Source of the DNA: a virus | Lineage: Duplodnaviria > Caudoviricetes | Length of the DNA: 64,000 nucleotides | Virus record (IMG/VR): IMGVR_UViG_3300037807_000296 | Coordinates: 1,295 to 65,294 of that record | Direction: 5' to 3' (one strand) | Shown: one piece after another, positions 43,575-52,611 of the stretch | Layout: each line of letters opens with the position of its first letter | How positions within the stretch are numbered: the first letter of the stretch is position 1 | Notes under the pieces: generated by a model | Databases searched by the model: none | Told to the model about the DNA's origin: nothing | The model's input: the letters and a program-made list of their open reading frames with translations, nothing else | Made by a program: the position numbers and the translations under genes

Positions 43575-44141
43575 ATGAAAAGTTTTTTAATTATAGATTT
43601 CGAGACCTTAGATACTCGTCCATCAGCCGTTGTGTTATCTTTAGGAGCTTACTACGTGGATCTAGATAAAGATTTACCTAGTTATCAAGATATCATTGAT
43701 ACTGGATATTACAAAACGTTTGATGTTGAGGAGCAAGTACAGGATGGTCGCACCATCAGCAAAGATACATTAGATTGGTGGAAAGATGTTGGAGAAGAAG
43801 CTCAGCATATTCTTAAACCGTCAAATGATGATGTATCATATAAGAGTTTGATTCCATCACTTCGTGAATATATATCAGATTATTCTGATTTTTTTGTATT
43901 CGCTCGATCTCCGTCATTTGATTTTAGTATCATTGATGATATTATATACTCTCAAAAAGAAGAGGTATTGTACCCTCAGTGGATGCAGAGAGATACCCGT
44001 ACTTGGATTGAATGTATGTCTGATTATAAGATTTATAACGGATTTAATATACCAGATCAAGGAGTTTCTATTATAAAACATCACGCTCTCCATGATATTG
44101 CTATAGATATTATTAGAATGAAAATGATAGTGGAGGCTTAA
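43575..44141 (+). CDS. dexA: DEDDh 3'-5' exonuclease (DexA-like)
   Basis: IDFETL, SFD, RDTRT, HHALHD. Confidence 0.82.
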   Translation: MKSFLIIDFETLDTRPSAVVLSLGAYYVDLDKDLPSYQDIIDTGYYKTFDVEEQVQDGRTISKDTLDWWKDVGEEAQHILKPSNDDVSYKSLIPSLREYISDYSDFFVFARSPSFDFSIIDDIIYSQKEEVLYPQWMQRDTRTWIECMSDYKIYNGFNIPDQGVSIIKHHALHDIAIDIIRMKMIVEA

Positions 44142-44710: not shown

Positions 44711-44774
44711 AAAATAACTGTTGACTTTTTTTTCAAATCCTGTATAATAGACCTCACTGAAGCAAGAAAGGAAA
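44711..44774 (+). promoter_or_regulatory. Early promoter/leader cassette, copy 1
   Basis: AAATAACTGTTGACT..TGTATAATAGACC..AGCAAGAAAGGAAA, near-identical to 48409-48471. Confidence 0.8.
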
Positions 44775-45029: not shown

Positions 45030-45305
45030 ATGGTTAAGCAAGATGGGTATAAGGGGTTGGGATTTAATCCTGCAATGAGTCTCAGAGAAGTAGCAGAGCA
45101 ACTTCAATTTGAAGAAGGAGCTGAAAAACCTCTTACAATTCAACGAATTCTCGCTATTGAAAAGTCAGCGCTCGCTAAGTTATCTAAGAATCCTACATTA
45201 AAGAAGATGTTTGATACATATGTAACCGGAAATTCATCAGATGAGTATTTCGGTGAAGGTCAAGGGGCGGGTGGTAATATTAGACCAGATAAAACAATGA
45301 TGTAG
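45030..45305 (+). CDS. Stand-alone sigma70 region 4-like HTH protein
   Basis: MSLREVAEQL...LTIQRILAIEKSALAKL resembles TLEEVG..VTRERIRQIEAKALRKL. Confidence 0.72.
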   Translation: MVKQDGYKGLGFNPAMSLREVAEQLQFEEGAEKPLTIQRILAIEKSALAKLSKNPTLKKMFDTYVTGNSSDEYFGEGQGAGGNIRPDKTMM

Positions 45306-45307
45306 AT

Positions 45308-45535
45308 TTGGAGATCAACGTGTTTAAACGTGCAGAAATTGAAGGTGGATGGGAATTCATCGATAAAACCCCTGCTGGTGGAATGACTTATTATGATCTA
45401 AATTTAGATCAAGTTGCAGTGGTTTATGACGACATCATCAAAGTGTTTAATAGGAAACGAAGATTACCTATTGAGCACTCGAATGGAAAATATCCTTGTG
45501 CTTATGATGTAGATGGTCAGGATTTTTTGCTTTGA
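45308..45535 (+). CDS. Hypothetical protein
   Basis: 75-aa ORF, TTG start. Confidence 0.45.
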   Translation: MEINVFKRAEIEGGWEFIDKTPAGGMTYYDLNLDQVAVVYDDIIKVFNRKRRLPIEHSNGKYPCAYDVDGQDFLL

Positions 45536-45637
45536 ATATTTGTAATATGAACTGGAGTTACTAATTGAAATTATATATAATAATCACCAGGAAGTCTTGA
45601 TAGCAGATGGTAAATAGGTTATCAAGAAAAAAAATGA

Positions 45638-45709
45638 ACAAAAGAGATAAATAATAGTATAATATAGAAATATACAAAAGAGATAAATAATAGTATAATA
45701 TAGAAATAT
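45638..45709 (+). repeat. Perfect 36-bp tandem duplication containing GATAAATA and TATAAT
   Basis: ACAAAAGAGATAAATAATAGTATAATATAGAAATAT x2. Confidence 0.95.
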
Positions 45710-45726
45710 ACAAACAAAAGGATTTT

Positions 45727-45849
45727 ATGAAAACATTTACACAACCACTTAGACAGGAACAAGATCACGGCACAATTACGCCCGTGTTCAGTCCTGCCAT
45801 AGTATGTTGGTTAAATGGATCGAATTATAAGGGAGGGGTCCCTGAATGA
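45727..45849 (+). CDS. Putative attenuator leader peptide (40 aa)
   Basis: SD AAGGA; MKTFTQPLRQEQDHGTITPVFSPAIVCWLNGSNYKGGVPE; 3' end overlaps the antiterminator strand. Confidence 0.75.
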   Translation: MKTFTQPLRQEQDHGTITPVFSPAIVCWLNGSNYKGGVPE

Positions 45850-45885
45850 AGTAGCTCAATACACTCATTCAAGAAGGACCCTCCC
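45831..45885 (+). promoter_or_regulatory. Antiterminator hairpin
   Basis: GGGAGGG-G-TCC..TGAATGA pairs with TCATTCA..GGA-CCCTCCC. Confidence 0.75.
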
Positions 45886-45909
45886 AGTATGAACTTGGAG
45901 GGTTTTTTT
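45878..45909 (+). terminator. Intrinsic terminator that also sequesters the downstream SD
   Basis: ACCCTCC-CAGT-ATGA-ACTT-GGAGGG followed by T7. Confidence 0.85.
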
Positions 45910-46053
45910 ATGCAAACAATTAAACAAGAGAAAAAGAATGTGTCTCGTAATTTTGTTGCGAAACATTCAAGTGAATATAATCATTCTCGAGTCTTTCGAG
46001 ATAGGAAGAATGATTATAAACGGAAGTCTAAACACGTAACAACTGTTTATTGA
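45910..46053 (+). CDS. ArfA-like small basic protein (47 aa)
   Basis: MQTIKQEKKNVSRNFVAKHSSEYNHSRVFRDRKNDYKRKSKHVTTVY; RV..........Y.RK.KH pattern; SD GGAGG. Confidence 0.62.
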   Translation: MQTIKQEKKNVSRNFVAKHSSEYNHSRVFRDRKNDYKRKSKHVTTVY

Positions 46054-46204
46054 TATATAGGATACCTAGATCCATAAGCTAGGGTATTGTAGAGGGAACA
46101 AGTCTTTTAAGATGGTAACCAACACAATTGCATAGAGACATGAGGAATTTTGTATTCCTCGTTTCTTTAAGGGTATTCGTTAGAGTATCTTTAAAGAAAT
46201 TTTT

Positions 46205-46279
46205 GCCTTGGTCGTATAATGGTTAGTACAGAAGATTGTCGATCTTCATATAGGGTTTCGATTACCCTCCAAGGCGCCA
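46205..46279 (+). tRNA. tRNA-Asp(GTC)
   Basis: Cloverleaf, GAAGA-TTGTCGA-TCTTC, encoded CCA. Confidence 0.9.
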
Positions 46280-46557
46280 AATAACCGATTGATGTGAAAT
46301 GAAGATATTTCACTAAGTCTAGCGCTGCGGTATCGTTAATACATTAGCAAGTATAATTTGGAACCTTAGTTGAGATGTATATTATCATATTCAGTAATAG
46401 CAGTGATTAAATCACTATATGATATTGTTGATTTTGTTTTCTTGGTATTGTTCTCTGTTTGTAACATTAATTCACAATTTAACATGTGTTTAATAGTAAA
46501 ACATCTCTCTTACAAAGAGGAGCCAAAGGAGCGTTACCTTTATTGGATACCAAAAAT

Positions 46558-46631
46558 GTCGTGTTAGCTCCAATTGGCAGAGCAGGAGTTTCCAACACTC
46601 ATGGTTCGGGGTTCGAATCCCTGGCACGGCG
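46558..46631 (+). tRNA. tRNA-Trp(CCA)
   Basis: Cloverleaf, loop TTCCAAC, GTTCGAATC; no encoded CCA. Confidence 0.85.
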
Positions 46632-46633
46632 CC

Positions 46634-46705
46634 CGTAATCGATCAAGAGATCATTCATCTTTCATAAAGAAGAATAGCTTGGGGCAGTACCAAGGATTAC
46701 GACCA
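46634..46705 (+). tRNA. Atypical tRNA with CAT anticodon (Met-like)
   Basis: CGTAATC/GATTACG acceptor plus ACCA; loop TTCATAA; T-loop GGCAGTA; short D arm. Confidence 0.68.
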
Positions 46706-46722
46706 TATAATGTTATAAAATA

Positions 46723-46798
46723 GGGGAATGGGCTTGGGTACCCAGGATTCTTTTGCAAGGAGTCAGCTTGATCAGTTCAATTCTGATATTCTCTACCA
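46723..46798 (+). tRNA. tRNA-Ala(TGC)
   Basis: G3:U70, loop TTTGCAA, ACCA. Confidence 0.85.
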
Positions 46799-46805
46799 GT
46801 TATAT

Positions 46806-46878
46806 GCCTGTGAGCTAATGGATAGACGCCAGCCTTCCAAGCTGTGCTGAGAGGTTTCGATCACCTCCACAGGCTCCA
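46806..46878 (+). tRNA. tRNA-Gly(TCC)
   Basis: GCCTGTG/CACAGGC, loop CTTCCAA, TCCA. Confidence 0.88.
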
Positions 46879-46903
46879 TTTAATGATTGATGTAATATAT
46901 TTA

Positions 46904-46987
46904 GTCTTTTGTTCCTGACATCAGTCTTCTAAACTGATCCAAGAGTTAGGTGGATGGCGTGAGGTTCGATTCCTCCAGAGGACACCA
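46904..46987 (+). tRNA. Atypical tRNA-Arg(TCT): D arm missing, long variable region
   Basis: Acceptor GTCTTTT/AGAGGAC plus ACCA, ATCAGT-CTTCTAA-ACTGAT, GGTTCGATTCC. Confidence 0.72.
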
Positions 46988-46993
46988 ACAAAC

Positions 46994-47079
46994 GGAAGAT
47001 AAACTAGTCAGGGACTAGACTTGTTTGCTAAACAATGTGAACCGCAAGGTTTGAATTTCGAATATTCTGTCTTCCACCA
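46994..47079 (+). tRNA. tRNA-Ser(GCT)
   Basis: Long variable arm with GCAA loop, anticodon loop TTGCTAA. Confidence 0.88.
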
Positions 47080-47084
47080 ATAAA

Positions 47085-47159
47085 GGGCCTTTAGCTTAAA
47101 GGTAAAGCACTCCACTCATAATGGATTGAGTCTAGGTTCGATTCCTGGAAGGCCCACCA
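47085..47159 (+). tRNA. tRNA-Ile2 or Met (CAT)
   Basis: Canonical cloverleaf GGGCCTT/AAGGCCC, loop CTCATAA. Confidence 0.88.
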
Positions 47160-47170
47160 TGTTACATAAT

Positions 47171-47242
47171 GCCCTTGTAGTCTAATGGAAAGGCTACAGT
47201 CTTCGAAACTGTTATATAGAGGTTCGAATCCTCTCAAGGGTA
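47171..47242 (+). tRNA. tRNA-Arg(TCG)
   Basis: ACAGT-CTTCGAA-ACTGT; followed by CTA rather than CCA. Confidence 0.85.
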
Positions 47243-47249
47243 CTAAATT

Positions 47250-47342
47250 GGAAGTCCCATCCGATGGTTGGCGACGGATGCTGTCTTGAAAACAGTTAGC
47301 TCTGAAACGGGCGTTAGGGTTCGATCCCCTAGGCTTCCGCCA
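47250..47342 (+). tRNA. tRNA-Ser(TGA)
   Basis: Long variable arm, loop CTTGAAA, GCCA. Confidence 0.9.
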
Positions 47343-49458: not shown

Positions 49459-50130
49459 ATTAGTAGATGAATGTGAAGATAGTTACTACAAGCTGGAAAC
49501 ACTGTGAGATGTTACATCTCAACAAGATTATATTGCAGGAGACTCTGCTGAAAATTACTTTAAGTATTACGATGGCATTGAACATACTGAAGCAGGTGAT
49601 AGCTTATTAATTTCACTGCATACTGCAAAAACTGAGGAATCGGAGATAGGAATGTTAATATGTTCAGTAAGTCTAGCTACACTTGTTTTAGTATATTATT
49701 TGTCCTTGTAAATTCCCTTCATAACCATTGAAGTAAAATAGTGGTCTGATCTTAGAGTATAAGGTGCTTAGCGAGGATAATGACGTTACGGTTTATCTAC
49801 GATAATTGATACGAGCAGAGCATACTGCTATGTTAGTAAATAAAACACTCACGCTATCTCATCTAATTGGAACTAGGTGGTGGAAAACCTTAATGGTTTG
49901 AAGTAGCCTTGTTATGCTATACGATAGATAGTTCGAATCTATCCGGGGGAAAGGGCACGCGAATAAGACCCTGTGCCCCGAGGTCATAAGGGGTCAATGC
50001 GACAATGACATGTATAGTATTTGACTCCCTGAGTGTGTGGTCACAAATGCATATTGGCGGTTCAATTCCGTTGCAGGGAGGCGCATTTGAAGTATTAAGC
50101 ATGTTAACTTGTTACTGGAGGAGAATATCA

Positions 50131-50466
50131 ATGACATATGATGTTAAATATAACTCGATTGATGAAAACAGTCAAATAGAAGTTTTAAGGGTGTATATAG
50201 ATATTGAATTCTTATCTGATGTACCAGTGATAATAAATATAATAGACGAGTCTGGTAAAAAATATGGTTCATTAAGTCATATTAACCATCCTAGTTTTGA
50301 AGCAACTAGAACTCTACTAGAGGAAAAAGGATATTTGCTAGTAGAAAGGGGATGGTGTAATGGTGATGTAATATTAAGAGATTTTTATTTCAATGATAAG
50401 TTACTTAAAGCAGGCACGAGTTTTTATTCAGCAGTTGCTATGGGTATACGCTCTCAGTTTAATTGA
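50131..50466 (+). CDS. Hypothetical protein
   Basis: SD GGAGG before ATG 50131. Confidence 0.6.
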   Translation: MTYDVKYNSIDENSQIEVLRVYIDIEFLSDVPVIINIIDESGKKYGSLSHINHPSFEATRTLLEEKGYLLVERGWCNGDVILRDFYFNDKLLKAGTSFYSAVAMGIRSQFN

Positions 50467-51316
50467 TATCAAATTTCATTAACATTTCGGAACCGACAGA
50501 AGATAATGGATTCATTGCTAAAGCATATCTATTGATGATTCCGATGTTATCTTGCATAGATTTGGAGAATGTGCTTGTTACAATTTCTTGTTGATAAGTT
50601 CCCATTATTAAAGATGAAGAAGCACCGAATTCATCATTTTCCTCTTTAAGTCCTATGAACGCTTTAGTTGCACTAATGTCTGGATTTACATAGTATAGAG
50701 TTTTACCTACACGTCCAACTATTAATCTTTTGCTTCTAGATGTTACATATTCACTTCCTCCAATATACGCATTCAATGCTGATATACTAGCAGCTGCTTT
50801 ATATGGAAGGATAACAAAGGCATCATACGTTCGGAAATTAGGTGTATTCATTTTCATCACTAATTCTTGTACCCTCTGAGTGATCTCGAATAATGATGTT
50901 TCAGAGCTTCCTTTATCTGATAATGTTAAAACTGGTGTAGATAATGAGTTATTATCGAGATAATTTAGTAACGTATAATCTTCATTTGATTCTACTATAC
51001 TCTTCAATAATTTACTTGCATAATTTTGTCCTGTATCTCCATATTGAATAGATATATCTTTAATAGCTTCTGTAGATAAACCAGTTTGTAGTGGGTTAGA
51101 TGTATCGGTATTTACTTGAAGAACACTTTCAACTGCTTCATAAGCATTTGAACCAGTTTGTTTCTTAATGTTTATTATCTTACCACTTGGTAATTTCATT
51201 GGTACTATAGTAGCAATTTCACGCATTAATGATAAAGTTGGAAGCTCCTGAAAATTTGTGATTACATCATTAAAATTATATTGAGCTGCATTGTTTACTA
51301 TTGTATTTTCGTTCAT
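50459..51316 (-). CDS. Short gp23/gp24-like (HK97-fold) capsid protein paralog
   Basis: IATIVPMKLPSGKI and IINRYALAMNPL resemble gp23 motifs; GATAAATA upstream on the minus strand. Confidence 0.65.
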   Translation of the reverse strand: MNENTIVNNAAQYNFNDVITNFQELPTLSLMREIATIVPMKLPSGKIINIKKQTGSNAYEAVESVLQVNTDTSNPLQTGLSTEAIKDISIQYGDTGQNYASKLLKSIVESNEDYTLLNYLDNNSLSTPVLTLSDKGSSETSLFEITQRVQELVMKMNTPNFRTYDAFVILPYKAAASISALNAYIGGSEYVTSRSKRLIVGRVGKTLYYVNPDISATKAFIGLKEENDEFGASSSLIMGTYQQEIVTSTFSKSMQDNIGIINRYALAMNPLSSVGSEMLMKFDIN

Positions 51317-51514
51317 GTTATTCCTTGTTAATATTGATTATATTTATCTATAATATATGTTAAGATAAATTAAAATAATCGTTGACTTTTATCATTATTT
51401 AGAGTATAATATACATATAGAAAAGGTTGTAAATAAATGATAACGCCTAATCAGCAGTAAGTTAATTGCTACCTTACCGAAAGTTAGTTCTAAGTAAATT
51501 GGATAGATTACTAA

Positions 51515-51745
51515 TTGAACAGACTAGTTAGTAGTGTTAAATACATAGAAGATAACGGGTATCAGAGATTCTATCGGATTAATGTTAATAGCGAAAATGT
51601 ATTTGAAGTGTATGAAGGTGGAGACAATAATCTTGGCTGGAATTTCAATGATGTGTACTTGATTCCAACATTAATGCAAATAGCATATCACGCTGGTAAG
51701 AATGGTGAAGAATTCAAGATATCTAATGCTGAAAGTGATAAATAA
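51515..51745 (+). CDS. Hypothetical protein
   Basis: 76-aa ORF downstream of a TTGACT..TATAAT promoter at about 51382. Confidence 0.45.
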   Translation: MNRLVSSVKYIEDNGYQRFYRINVNSENVFEVYEGGDNNLGWNFNDVYLIPTLMQIAYHAGKNGEEFKISNAESDK

Positions 51746-51750
51746 TCAAT

Positions 51751-51821
51751 AGCGAGTTAGTCAAGGACTGGATTGGGTTCATATCCCTTTTAGCATGGAG
51801 CGTTACCATGGCTCGCTACCA
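51751..51821 (+). tRNA. Atypical initiator-like tRNA-Met(CAT)
   Basis: AGCGAGT/GCTCGCT plus ACCA; GGG-TTCATAT-CCC; T-loop AGCGTTA; minimal D loop. Confidence 0.7.
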
Positions 51822-51823
51822 AA

Positions 51824-51967
51824 ATTCAACGTAGACATCTCTAAATGGAATGTTTCTATAGTATGAGTGTTATGTTCAAAGGCAGTAAAATTCCAGCAGA
51901 TTATATTAAGAAACAGTTACCGTACAAAAGAGTAGAGTACGAATATACAAGGATGTTAGATTTATGA
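51824..51967 (+). pseudogene. 3' remnant of a DUF285 paralog
   Basis: Aligns with the 3' end of the downstream gene (GACATCTCTAAATGGAAT...AAAATTCCAGCAGATT...TTAGATTT). Confidence 0.75.
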
Positions 51968-52611
51968 TTAAAATCAGCGACAAGGCACATCTAAAGAGTA
52001 TTATTAATGAAAGATTAGATGATGCAGATTTAAATGATCTTGATGTTTCTAAAGTGACTGATATGGATTCTGTGTTTTATGAGTCTCAATTCAATGGGGA
52101 TATCTCTAAATGGAATGTCTCTAAAGTAACTAATATGAGTTATATGTTCTATAATTCTCAATTCAATGGGGACATCTCTAAATGGAATGTTTCTAAAGTA
52201 ACTGATATGTCTAGTATGTTCCAAGATTCTCAATTCAATGGGGATATATCTAAATGGAATGCTTCTAAAGTGAAAAATATGAGTTATATGTTTTATAATT
52301 CTCCGTTCAACAGGGACATCTCTAAATGGAAGACTTCTAATGTGACTAGTACATACTCAATGTTTATAAATTCTCCGTTCAACGGAGATATCTCTAAATG
52401 GGATACTTCTAAAGTAACTAATATGAGTTATATGTTCTATAATTCTCAATTCAATGGAGATATTTCTAAGTGGAATACTTCTAAAGTGATGTATACAACC
52501 TCTATGTTCAAAGGTAATAAAATTCCAGCAGATTCAATAGAAGATTATATTAAGAAACAACTGCCATTTAAAAGAATCGGTAGGAAATTTATGAAGGTGT
52601 TAGATTTGTAA
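51964..52611 (+). CDS. DUF285/BspA-like repeat protein
   Basis: About seven 22-aa repeats FNGDISKWNVSKVTNMSYMFYNSQ-type. Confidence 0.9.
   Translation: MIKISDKAHLKSIINERLDDADLNDLDVSKVTDMDSVFYESQFNGDISKWNVSKVTNMSYMFYNSQFNGDISKWNVSKVTDMSSMFQDSQFNGDISKWNASKVKNMSYMFYNSPFNRDISKWKTSNVTSTYSMFINSPFNGDISKWDTSKVTNMSYMFYNSQFNGDISKWNTSKVMYTTSMFKGNKIPADSIEDYIKKQLPFKRIGRKFMKVLDL

What the first reader, a model, noticed from the sequence alone, without database searches (positions are those of the whole stretch)
45727..45909. Codon-sampling leader-peptide attenuator upstream of the phage tRNA array: candidate general sensor of translation stress
Seen: a 40-codon ORF with an SD, below the ORF-track cutoff. 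It contains all 20 amino acids by codon 34 and 33 distinct codons, including GC-rich ones (GGC, ACG, CCC, GCC, TCG, CAC, GTG) that look out of place in this AT-rich genome. Its last codons (45831-45849) pair with 45865-45885, which excludes the intrinsic terminator at 45878-45909. The codons include those read by most downstream tRNAs (GAT, TGG, GGA, AGA, AGT, ATA, TCG, CAA, TGT). Established: in trp/his-type attenuators, ribosome position picks the hairpin, but those leaders repeat one amino acid; host anticodon nucleases (e.g. PrrC, PARIS) deplete tRNAs and phage tRNAs can compensate. Inference: a ribosome that finishes the leader masks the antiterminator and transcription stops; stalling at almost any codon permits read-through into the ArfA-like gene and tRNAs. 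That would be an inducible, codon-agnostic counter-defence switch. Alternative: the MKTF start resembles T4 internal-protein leaders, but the match is poor (Pro7, no hydrophobic-x-E).
Basis: partly seen in the sequence, partly recalled or inferred. Interest (0 to 1): 0.92.

Follow-up and report, generated by a model that had tools for sequence, protein, structure and literature searches.

The report
Leader-ORF attenuator before phage tRNAs
A marine T4-like phage has, just ahead of a small unknown gene and its tRNA genes, a short reading frame wired to a switchable transcription stop; this probably raises tRNA output when ribosomes run slowly, but the idea that the frame samples every codon on purpose is not supported beyond chance.

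Summary
There is a 40-codon ORF (45727-45849) with an SD typical of this phage, all 20 amino acids and 33 codons. It sits in a three-part RNA switch. The ORF's last codons (arm A, 45831-45849) pair with B (45865-45885). That pairing excludes the terminator B:C (45879-45909), whose 3' arm is the SD of a DUF7230 gene.

The switch is beyond chance. The codon diversity mostly follows from the GC-rich hairpins the ORF overlaps (P 0.01-0.04 against composition-matched open frames). The codons are not enriched for those read by the downstream tRNAs.

A pattern taken from the switch found 15 loci (four leader families, uncultured phages). All head tRNA arrays, and all have an ORF ending 15-19 nt into arm A. 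The nearest cultured relatives (Vibrio phage Va1 group) have the same layout with unrelated switch letters.

I read it as a ribosome-mediated attenuator. A ribosome reaching the stop codon masks A and transcription ends. Slow or absent leader translation gives read-through into DUF7230 and the tRNAs. "Codon-agnostic counter-defence sensor" and "ArfA-like" remain unsupported. This scan noted such tRNA-array leaders before on other DNA; my searches found none in print.

The parts
45632..45703 (+). Tandem 36-nt duplication carrying two sigma-70-like promoters (-35/-10 at 45635-45663 and 45671-45699)
   Evidence: two copies, 94% alike; each 10 of 12 promoter matches
45717..45721 (+). SD (AAGGA) of the leader ORF, 5 nt before the ATG (45722-45726, TTTTT)
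   Evidence: same type and spacing as real genes of the phage
45727..45849 (+). Leader ORF, 40 codons plus TGA
45729..45821 (+). Long imperfect hairpin P1 inside the ORF; its stems hold most of the rare GC-rich codons
   Evidence: -25.9 kcal/mol for 45727-45830
45831..45849 (+). Arm A: 5' arm of the antiterminator. It contains the last six codons and the stop codon (45847-45849)
45865..45885 (+). Arm B: pairs either with A (antiterminator) or with C (terminator)
45879..45909 (+). Intrinsic terminator: stem 45879-45902 plus a run of seven T (45903-45909)
45897..45902 (+). Arm C (GGAGGG): 3' arm of the terminator and SD of the next gene, 7 nt before its ATG
45910..46053 (+). 47-aa basic protein, Pfam DUF7230
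   Evidence: 35.7 and 33.2 bits; cut-off 27
46205..47342 (+). First tRNA block. Asp, Trp, Met/Ile-CAT, Arg-TCG and Ser-TGA at the default threshold; Gly-TCC, Arg-TCT and Ser-GCT at a relaxed one

Best explanation
This is a ribosome-mediated transcription attenuator that also hides a ribosome-binding site.

How I think it works:
- Transcripts from the duplicated promoter, and probably from the promoter at 44721-44748, carry a 40-codon leader ORF.
- If a ribosome follows RNA polymerase closely and reaches the stop codon at 45847-45849, its footprint covers arm A. Arm B is then free to pair with C. The terminator forms, transcription ends at 45909, and the SD of the DUF7230 gene is buried.
- If the leader is not translated, or the ribosome lags or stalls before about codon 30, A pairs with B. 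The terminator cannot form, and polymerase runs on into the DUF7230 gene and the first tRNA block.

The element would therefore report how well ribosomes keep up with transcription, not the supply of one amino acid.

Shown: the ORF, its SD, the three arms and their energies, the position of the stop codon, and the recurrence of this layout before tRNA arrays in other phages.

Inferred: that the ORF is translated, that ribosome position decides the fold, and that the tRNAs depend on read-through.
For: 1. Mutually exclusive hairpins.
- A:B is -26.1 kcal/mol. The terminator state is -28.4 at the decision point.
- The estimated barrier from A:B to the terminator state is 12.3 kcal/mol.
- Before C is made the MFE has A:B. 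The full-length MFE has the terminator.

2. Masking 45832-45862, a ribosome at the stop codon, leaves the terminator.

3. It is the only one of 10 terminator-like sites in the window with a significant upstream alternative partner.

4. The ORF has an SD of the phage's usual type. A shuffle of its letters stays open only 8% of the time.

5. A pattern of the three arm cores found 88 loci.
- 15 of the 88 have a same-strand tRNA within 1.5 kb downstream. These are 13 distinct sequences in four leader families.
- All 15 have an ATG ORF whose stop lies 15-19 nt after the start of arm A (ours: 15).
- Only 3 of the other 73 do, and one of those is a truncated copy of an array locus.
- In 7 of the 15 (L017, L020, L023, L033, L036, L076, L095) the first tRNA starts 6-9 nt after the T run, so it can only be made by read-through.

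6. Within these families the peptides diverge strongly while ORF length and stop position are kept. Examples: 23 of 35 and 16 of 29 codons changed non-synonymously.

7. Evidence independent of the pattern comes from Vibrio phage Va1, the nearest cultured relative (47% identity in the gp52-like protein).
- At the head of its tRNA array it has a promoter, an SD and a 53-codon ORF.
- The stop codon lies in a 19-bp hairpin that competes with the terminator. The switch letters are different from ours.
- Six Vibrio phage records share this element at 97.3% identity or more. In the four aligned, both variable ORF sites are synonymous third positions.

8. No + strand promoter-like site of 9 of 12 or better lies between 45909 and tRNA-Asp.

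9. Contigs of two RNA libraries of one study bridge the terminator. Contigs of two other studies end at 45863 and 45897. This is a weak hint only.
Against: - No close relative of this element was found, so there is no covariation or conservation test on this sequence itself.
- The arm cores of the 15 loci were fixed by my search pattern, so their A:B pairing is partly by construction. The pairing inside the arms is only modestly better than in chance hits (z -1.1 to -3.7 against a control mean of -0.9, sd 1.5).
- Arm A can fold on itself (5 bp). The estimated barrier from that state to A:B is 9.7 kcal/mol, so an untranslated leader may terminate as well.
- In 8 of the 15 array loci (L012, L013, L016, L018, L042, L055, L090 and L015) the first tRNA lies 136-777 nt after the terminator; where I read the spacer (L012, L016/L018, L015) and in Va1 it holds promoter-like sequence, so their arrays need not depend on read-through.
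- A perfect TATAAT (45976-45981) with a poor -35 lies inside the DUF7230 gene.
- No codon is repeated the way regulatory codons are in trp- or his-type leaders.
- The RNA data are contigs. They give no ends and no local depth.
Confidence: 0.55

Rival explanations
1. An ordinary small early gene. The 40-aa peptide has a function of its own and is the last gene of the early unit that starts at about 44750. A leaky intrinsic terminator closes the unit. The A:B hairpin is incidental or only stabilises the mRNA end.
For: - The neighbourhood is full of small ORFs of 29-91 aa.
- RNA-library contigs run continuously from about 44770 through the ORF.
- In the Va1 group the two variable sites of the equivalent ORF are synonymous, as for a protein under selection, and two records annotate it as a CDS.
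Against: - No homologue of the peptide was found among 5.8 billion clustered proteins or in Pfam or NCBIfam.
- Codon adaptation is in the lowest 2%.
- The stop codon sits inside a -26 kcal/mol hairpin that competes with the terminator, which is unique among 10 terminator-like sites.
- The same stop-in-arm geometry recurs with unrelated peptides before tRNA arrays.
Confidence: 0.2
2. A translation-independent RNA switch. P1 and the A:B helix would bind a ligand, a protein or an RNA (or sense temperature), and that would choose between antiterminator and terminator. The ORF would be a by-product.
For: - Strong structure (z -4.07).
- The GC-rich letters lie in stems.
- A frame of this composition stays open by chance 8% of the time.
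Against: - No Rfam family matches at E up to 1.
- P1 is a plain long hairpin, not a multi-helix junction.
- All 15 array-linked loci and Va1 keep an ATG/GTG ORF that ends in arm A, although their upstream RNA is not alike.
Confidence: 0.12
3. A free-standing small RNA of about 200 nt (promoter at 45694-45699 to terminator at 45909) that acts in trans.
For: - Promoter, structured body and intrinsic terminator form a complete unit.
- RNA-library contigs of two studies end inside the terminator region.
Against: - The contigs continue upstream into the neighbouring genes with no break at the promoter beyond the collapsed repeat.
- The terminator's 3' arm is the SD of the next gene, which points to cis control.
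- No target was sought or found.
Confidence: 0.08

Closest known systems
Leader-peptide attenuators of enterobacterial amino-acid operons (trp, his, thr, ilv type; recalled textbook knowledge)
   Same: A short translated leader, a stop codon placed so that a terminating ribosome masks the antiterminator's 5' arm, mutually exclusive antiterminator and terminator, and a T run.
   Different: - No run of one regulatory codon.
- No clear 1:2-type helix that pairs with arm A.
- The target is tRNA genes and a small unknown protein, not biosynthetic enzymes.
- The terminator also hides the SD of the next gene.
- The host is a phage.
Ribosome-mediated attenuation of translation-factor genes by drug-stalled leader ribosomes, e.g. 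msrD with leader MsrDL (bioRxiv 10.1101/2021.11.29.470318; abstract and outline read)
   Same: A ribosome stalled on a leader ORF prevents a Rho-independent terminator. The regulated product acts on translation. The signal is impaired translation rather than one amino acid.
   Different: There the stall is drug- and peptide-specific and the stalled ribosome itself blocks the terminator. Here any delay before arm A would act through an antiterminator helix, and no drug is implied.
Silent tRNA operon of Anabaena induced under translational stress (PMC8421152, search listing only; PMC10272220, abstract read)
   Same: An accessory tRNA array that is switched on when translation is impaired.
   Different: Control there is by the protein repressor TrcR at the promoter, not by a leader ORF and terminator, and it is cellular rather than viral.
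The scan's earlier notes describe the same on other DNA
   Same: - Position at the head of the array.
- The ORF stop lies 15-19 nt into arm A.
- A:B and B:C alternatives.
- With F1-F4, the same arm cores, and in F1-F3 a similar 5' leader motif around the SD.
   Different: - F1 and F4 leaders are spelled largely in the codons of their own arrays (0.75 own against 0.11 foreign for F1). The window's leader is not (0.36).
- It is longer (40 against 21-35 codons).
- It contains the large hairpin P1.
- A DUF7230 gene lies between the terminator and the tRNAs.

Membership tests
Leader-peptide transcription attenuators (trp/his type) | Short ORF with a ribosome-binding site in the leader | tested here: met
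   ORF 45727-45849 with AAGGA 5 nt upstream, as in real genes of the phage. Translation itself was not shown.
Leader-peptide transcription attenuators (trp/his type) | Mutually exclusive antiterminator and intrinsic terminator | tested here: met
   A:B -26.1 against terminator state -28.4 kcal/mol with shared arm B; z -3.6 for the alternative partner.
Leader-peptide transcription attenuators (trp/his type) | A ribosome at the leader's stop codon covers the antiterminator's 5' arm | tested here: met
   The stop codon at 45847-45849 lies inside arm A (45831-45849). Masking 45832-45862 gives the terminator fold.
Leader-peptide transcription attenuators (trp/his type) | Clustered or repeated codons of the regulating amino acid | tested here: not met
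   33 distinct codons in 40; no codon set enriched. The cluster of array-matched codons 22-32 has scan P 0.32.
Leader-peptide transcription attenuators (trp/his type) | An upstream helix that sequesters the antiterminator arm when the leader is not translated | tested here: inconclusive
   P1 does not pair with A. A can fold on itself (5 bp), with a barrier of 9.7 kcal/mol to A:B.
Leader-peptide transcription attenuators (trp/his type) | Read-through depends on ribosome stalling | not testable with these tools
   Needs reporter, Ribo-seq or in vitro coupled assays.
Curated RNA families (Rfam 15, including T-box and riboswitch leaders) | Match to a family covariance model | tested here: not met
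   No match in 45600-46200 at E up to 1. None over the leader elements of L013, L015, L016 or L017 at gathering score.
Phage tRNA-array leader cassettes (F1-F4, Va1 group) | Lies at the head of a same-strand tRNA array | tested here: met
   tRNA-Asp starts 296 nt after the T run, with only the DUF7230 ORF between.
Phage tRNA-array leader cassettes (F1-F4, Va1 group) | ORF stop 15-19 nt after the start of arm A | tested here: met
   +15 in the window; 15 of 15 array-linked loci against 3 of 73 others.
Phage tRNA-array leader cassettes (F1-F4, Va1 group) | Leader codons matched to the tRNAs of its own array | tested here: not met
   Share 0.36 for its own array against 0.56 and 0.62 for two foreign arrays. 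P 0.43 against shuffles.
ArfA (alternative ribosome-rescue factor A) for the downstream ORF | Match to the family profile or to solved ArfA chains | tested here: not met
   Pfam lists only DUF7230 at E up to 0.1. NCBIfam gives nothing at E up to 10. The three PDB sequence hits at E up to 10 are unrelated.
DUF7230 (PF23876) for the downstream ORF | Score above the curated cut-off | tested here: met
   35.7 bits against 27; 33.2 bits in the genome search.

The most novel reading that the evidence does not exclude
The leader is a deliberately broad, codon-agnostic gauge of translation. Because it holds 19 of the 20 amino acids, many as rare codons, within the roughly 30 codons that precede arm A, loss of almost any tRNA would delay the ribosome. 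Such loss could come from a host anticodon nuclease, or there could be a general slowdown. Either would switch on both the phage's spare tRNAs and a small basic DUF7230 protein that acts on ribosomes. That would make it an inducible counter-defence module.
Probability: 0.13. Interest if true: 0.9.

Novelty: new variant of a known kind. Interest (0 to 1): 0.66.

Why it matters
Phage tRNA genes are usually treated as constitutively expressed helpers for codon usage, or as spares against tRNA-cleaving defences. A leader ORF wired to a terminator in front of them would mean phages measure translation directly and make tRNAs on demand. In this phage it would also couple an uncharacterised family of small basic proteins (DUF7230) to the same signal.

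The layout recurs in unrelated phages: a marine T4-like phage, its cultured Vibrio phage relatives, and uncultured phages with large tRNA arrays. My three literature searches found no description of it. The Va1-group phages are cultured, so the idea can be tested at the bench.

Tried and rejected
Search for relatives of this element. All of the following found nothing usable:
- blastn of 45300-46300 against phage records.
- An exact 19-nt arm pattern and a 24-nt tRNA-Asp pattern in viral contigs.
- Neighbour proteins of 75, 91, 188 and 438 aa in viral contigs.
- The leader peptide and the DUF7230 protein in the 5.8-billion protein set.
- The 75-aa neighbour, which gave only a 99%-identical cluster.
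- The 91-aa neighbour in 1.84 billion representatives, which gave one 47% relative. Its two-sequence alignment found nothing in metagenome contigs.

DUF7230 loci L002-L008 and the Va1 copy (L010) have no such leader.

Ideas rejected:
- T-box or another riboswitch: no Rfam hit.
- A two-codon mini-ORF (ATG AAG TAG, 45846-45854) behind the SD-like arm A. It is not present in the other families, so I dropped it.
- The T4 internal-protein leader idea. No family hit for the peptide; not pursued.
- A cluster of array-matched codons at codons 22-32 (7 of 11). Not significant as a scan statistic (P 0.32; P 0.03 only if the window is fixed beforehand).

RNA libraries:
- The depths are contig means and cannot rank parts of the stretch.
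- X18 has no contig on 45911-46147. X16 has only a thin contig on 45902-46061. Neither is evidence of termination.
- No DNA run was laid beside them.

Other dead ends:
- Cultured phages with F1- or F4-type elements: none found by blastn.
- AT-rich pattern hits L024 and L086 proved to lie before a bacterial gene, not in a relative.
- No further leader cassette was found inside the eight array loci I scanned, and no second one in the window.
- Supplements of papers were not opened.

Full report
WHAT THE WINDOW IS
The window is almost all of a 65,294-base IMG/VR virus record that CheckV rates 37% complete. It encodes T4-type topoisomerase II subunits, a ribonucleotide reductase and an exonuclease. 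It has 33.6% G+C. Its nearest cultured relatives are Vibrio phages of the Va1 group, with 47% identity in the gp52-like protein. Near-identical DNA occurs in marine and seawater runs: 20 runs were listed, naming 14 studies.

THE OBSERVATION
The ORF 45727-45849 exists. Its SD (AAGGA, 5 nt before the ATG) is of the type and spacing seen at real genes here, for example at 43575. About 20-30 nt upstream lie two promoter-like sites on a 36-nt tandem duplication.

The ORF has 33 distinct codons and all 20 amino acids, the last by codon 34. It uses rare GC-rich codons. Its codon adaptation is 0.568 against 0.717 +/- 0.071, the lowest 2.1% of 2525 CDS windows.

The last codons (45831-45849) pair with 45865-45885 at -26.1 kcal/mol. 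The 3' half of that partner is the 5' arm of a terminator (stem 45879-45902, seven T to 45909). The terminator's 3' arm, GGAGGG, is the SD of the next ORF (ATG at 45910).

IS IT MORE THAN CHANCE?
The RNA switch is.
- The leader folds at z -4.07.
- Among 10 terminator-like sites that my scan found in the 64 kb, only this one has an upstream alternative partner beyond shuffles (z -3.6; 2 of 300 shuffles reach it).

The codon diversity is less clear.
- It is rare against 40-codon windows of long ORFs (P 0.0008 for codons, 0.002 for amino acids).
- Against shuffles of the ORF's own letters that remain open it is P 0.037 and 0.014.
- The rare GC-rich codons sit in the stems of the long hairpin P1 (45729-45821) and in arm A. 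RNA structure therefore explains most of the unusual composition, and with it most of the diversity.

The match to the tRNAs is not more than chance.
- With a relaxed ARAGORN threshold the array adds Gly-TCC, Arg-TCT and Ser-GCT to the seven default tRNAs.
- Nine of 10 species have a cognate codon in the leader (P 0.11 against shuffles).
- The number of such codons, 13 of 39 (10 tRNA species; 14 of 39 when Leu-TAA is added), is as expected (P 0.43 against shuffles; 0.23 against CDS windows).

ENERGETICS
- Before arm C is transcribed the MFE contains A:B. The full-length MFE contains the terminator.
- With the RNA out to 45903 the two states are nearly equal (-26.1 against -28.4 kcal/mol). The estimated barrier from A:B is 12.3 kcal/mol, so a formed antiterminator should outlast the polymerase's stay on the T run.
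- Masking 45832-45862, the footprint of a ribosome on the stop codon, leaves the terminator.
- A caveat: arm A can also fold on itself (5 bp), and the estimated barrier from that state to A:B is 9.7 kcal/mol. What an untranslated leader does is not settled by computation.

RELATIVES OF THE ELEMENT

I then searched for the three arm cores with free spacers.
- Viral contigs gave 8 loci.
- Metagenome contigs gave 117 stretches, of which 80 loci were listed.
- Most are GC-rich chance hits and serve as controls.
- Fifteen of the 88 loci have a same-strand tRNA within 1.5 kb downstream. In fact they have whole arrays of 3-18 tRNAs.
- All 15 have an ATG ORF of 21-35 codons whose stop lies 15-19 nt after the start of arm A, as in the window (+15). 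Only 3 of the other 73 do, and one of those is the same element cut short by the locus end.
- They fall into four leader families, 13 distinct sequences.
- In 7 of the 15 (L017, L020, L023, L033, L036, L076, L095) the first tRNA begins 6-9 nt after the T run.
- Two of the loci carry tail genes of phages with contigs of 111-121 kb.

The arm cores were fixed by the pattern. The ORF, its end point and the tRNAs were not.
- Inside the A:B helix the pairing exceeds shuffles in all 11 sequences tested, the window among them (z -1.1 to -3.7), against a mean of -0.9 (sd 1.5) in 71 controls. This is modest support.
- Within families the peptides change a great deal while the frame length is kept (23 of 35 and 16 of 29 codons changed non-synonymously).
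- F1 leaders are spelled in the codons of their own arrays (0.75 and 0.64) and not of F2 arrays (0.11). The window's leader matches its own array at 0.36.

AN INDEPENDENT CASE
Va1 has 23 tRNA matches. Upstream of the first lies a TATAAT, an AAAGGA, and a GTG-started 53-codon ORF with 19 amino acids. Its stop codon lies in a hairpin of about 19 bp that competes with a terminator of different sequence. The MFE switches from the one to the other when the 3' arm is added.

Six Vibrio phage records share this stretch at 97.3% identity or more (6 of the 25 records matched). In the four that I aligned, the only two variable sites within the ORF are synonymous third positions.

In Va1 a tRNA-like gene and a promoter-like site follow the terminator.

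TRANSCRIPTION IN NATURE
Four RNA libraries hold the stretch as contigs.
- Two libraries of one study have single contigs that run from about 44770, just after the promoter-like site at 44721-44748, across the terminator to 46117 and 46137.
- Contigs of two other studies end at 45863 and 45897, with no loose ends listed there.
- Contigs show neither ends nor local depth, and no DNA run was laid beside them. I count this as a weak hint that the leader is transcribed with the upstream genes and that both terminated and read-through forms exist.

THE DOWNSTREAM GENE
The 47-aa ORF scores over the cut-off for Pfam DUF7230. It matches PHROGs of unknown function. It has no hit to ArfA in Pfam, to any NCBIfam model, or to any solved chain. 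An Atlas look-up returns DUF7230 clusters, and no paper in the library holds the family name. The likeness to ArfA is a recalled resemblance of basic C-terminal motifs, not a tested membership.

MECHANISM
I commit, at 0.55, to a ribosome-mediated attenuator that also sequesters an SD. Completion of the leader to its stop codon gives termination. Absent, slow or stalled leader translation gives read-through into DUF7230 and the first tRNA block.

Because no codon is repeated, the element would gauge how well ribosomes keep pace with polymerase, rather than one amino acid.

It is allowed by the data but not supported by them (0.13).

Rivals: an ordinary small gene with a leaky terminator (0.20), a translation-independent RNA switch (0.12), and a trans-acting small RNA (0.08).

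NOVELTY
Ribosome-mediated attenuation is a known kind. One example is the msrD leader (abstract read). A tRNA operon induced by translational stress is known in Anabaena, but through a protein repressor (abstract read).

Three full-text searches found no account of leader-ORF attenuators before phage tRNA genes.

Earlier notes of this scan describe the same class on other DNA. I treated them as leads, and re-derived the class here from the window's own switch pattern and from Va1.

Noticed in passing
window 45632-45703: The promoter region is a perfect-register 36-nt tandem duplication. Contigs of three of the four RNA libraries laid hold the single-copy form (they skip 45638-45673). This may be a natural variant or a collapse by the assembler.
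   Followed up: partly
window 46161-46200; L015, L016 and L055 just before the first tRNA: An AU-rich hairpin ending in ...TATCTTTAAAGAAATTTTT abuts tRNA-Asp. The F1-F3 loci have GCTCTTTGAAAATT or GCTCTTTGACAATT at the same place. They resemble rrn-type boxA antitermination sites; that is recalled and not tested.
   Followed up: no
L010 1391-1570 (Vibrio phage Va1): Va1's DUF7230-like ORF (25.6 bits, under the cut-off) lies behind a hairpin and directly before a ClpP-like protease gene, not at its tRNA array.
   Followed up: partly
L016 6906-7367: A GOLLD RNA (190.5 bits) sits inside the tRNA array of an uncultured phage that carries an F1 leader.
   Followed up: no
window 46488-47079 and 49859-52396: At a relaxed ARAGORN threshold nine more tRNA-like genes appear. 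Some are odd, such as a 65-nt Cys-ACA and a 91-nt Arg-TCT. This agrees with the scan's notes on non-canonical tRNAs here.
   Followed up: partly
L137 1276-1348 (Va1): A tRNA-like gene with a CAT anticodon loop and a good T arm, which ARAGORN does not call, follows the leader terminator. It resembles the shrunken CAT tRNA-like genes noted in the window.
   Followed up: no
L024 3452-3526 and L086: The same three-arm pattern precedes an argininosuccinate-synthase-like gene (starts MKKEKIILAYSGGLDTS) in an AT-rich bacterial contig. It is a candidate attenuator of another kind.
   Followed up: no
window 45723-45735 and 45906-45918: The starts of the leader ORF and of the DUF7230 ORF share a 13-nt direct repeat with 12 of 13 identical (TTTTATGAAAACA and TTTTATGCAAACA).
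   Followed up: no
window 45846-45854: A two-codon mini-ORF (ATG AAG TAG) lies 7 nt behind the SD-like arm A. It is not conserved in the other leader families.
   Followed up: partly
window 45030-45305: The 91-aa neighbour has only one relative (47% identity, 73 aa) among 1.84 billion representative proteins, apart from two long repeat proteins. This phage lineage is very thinly sampled although it is common in seawater runs.
   Followed up: partly
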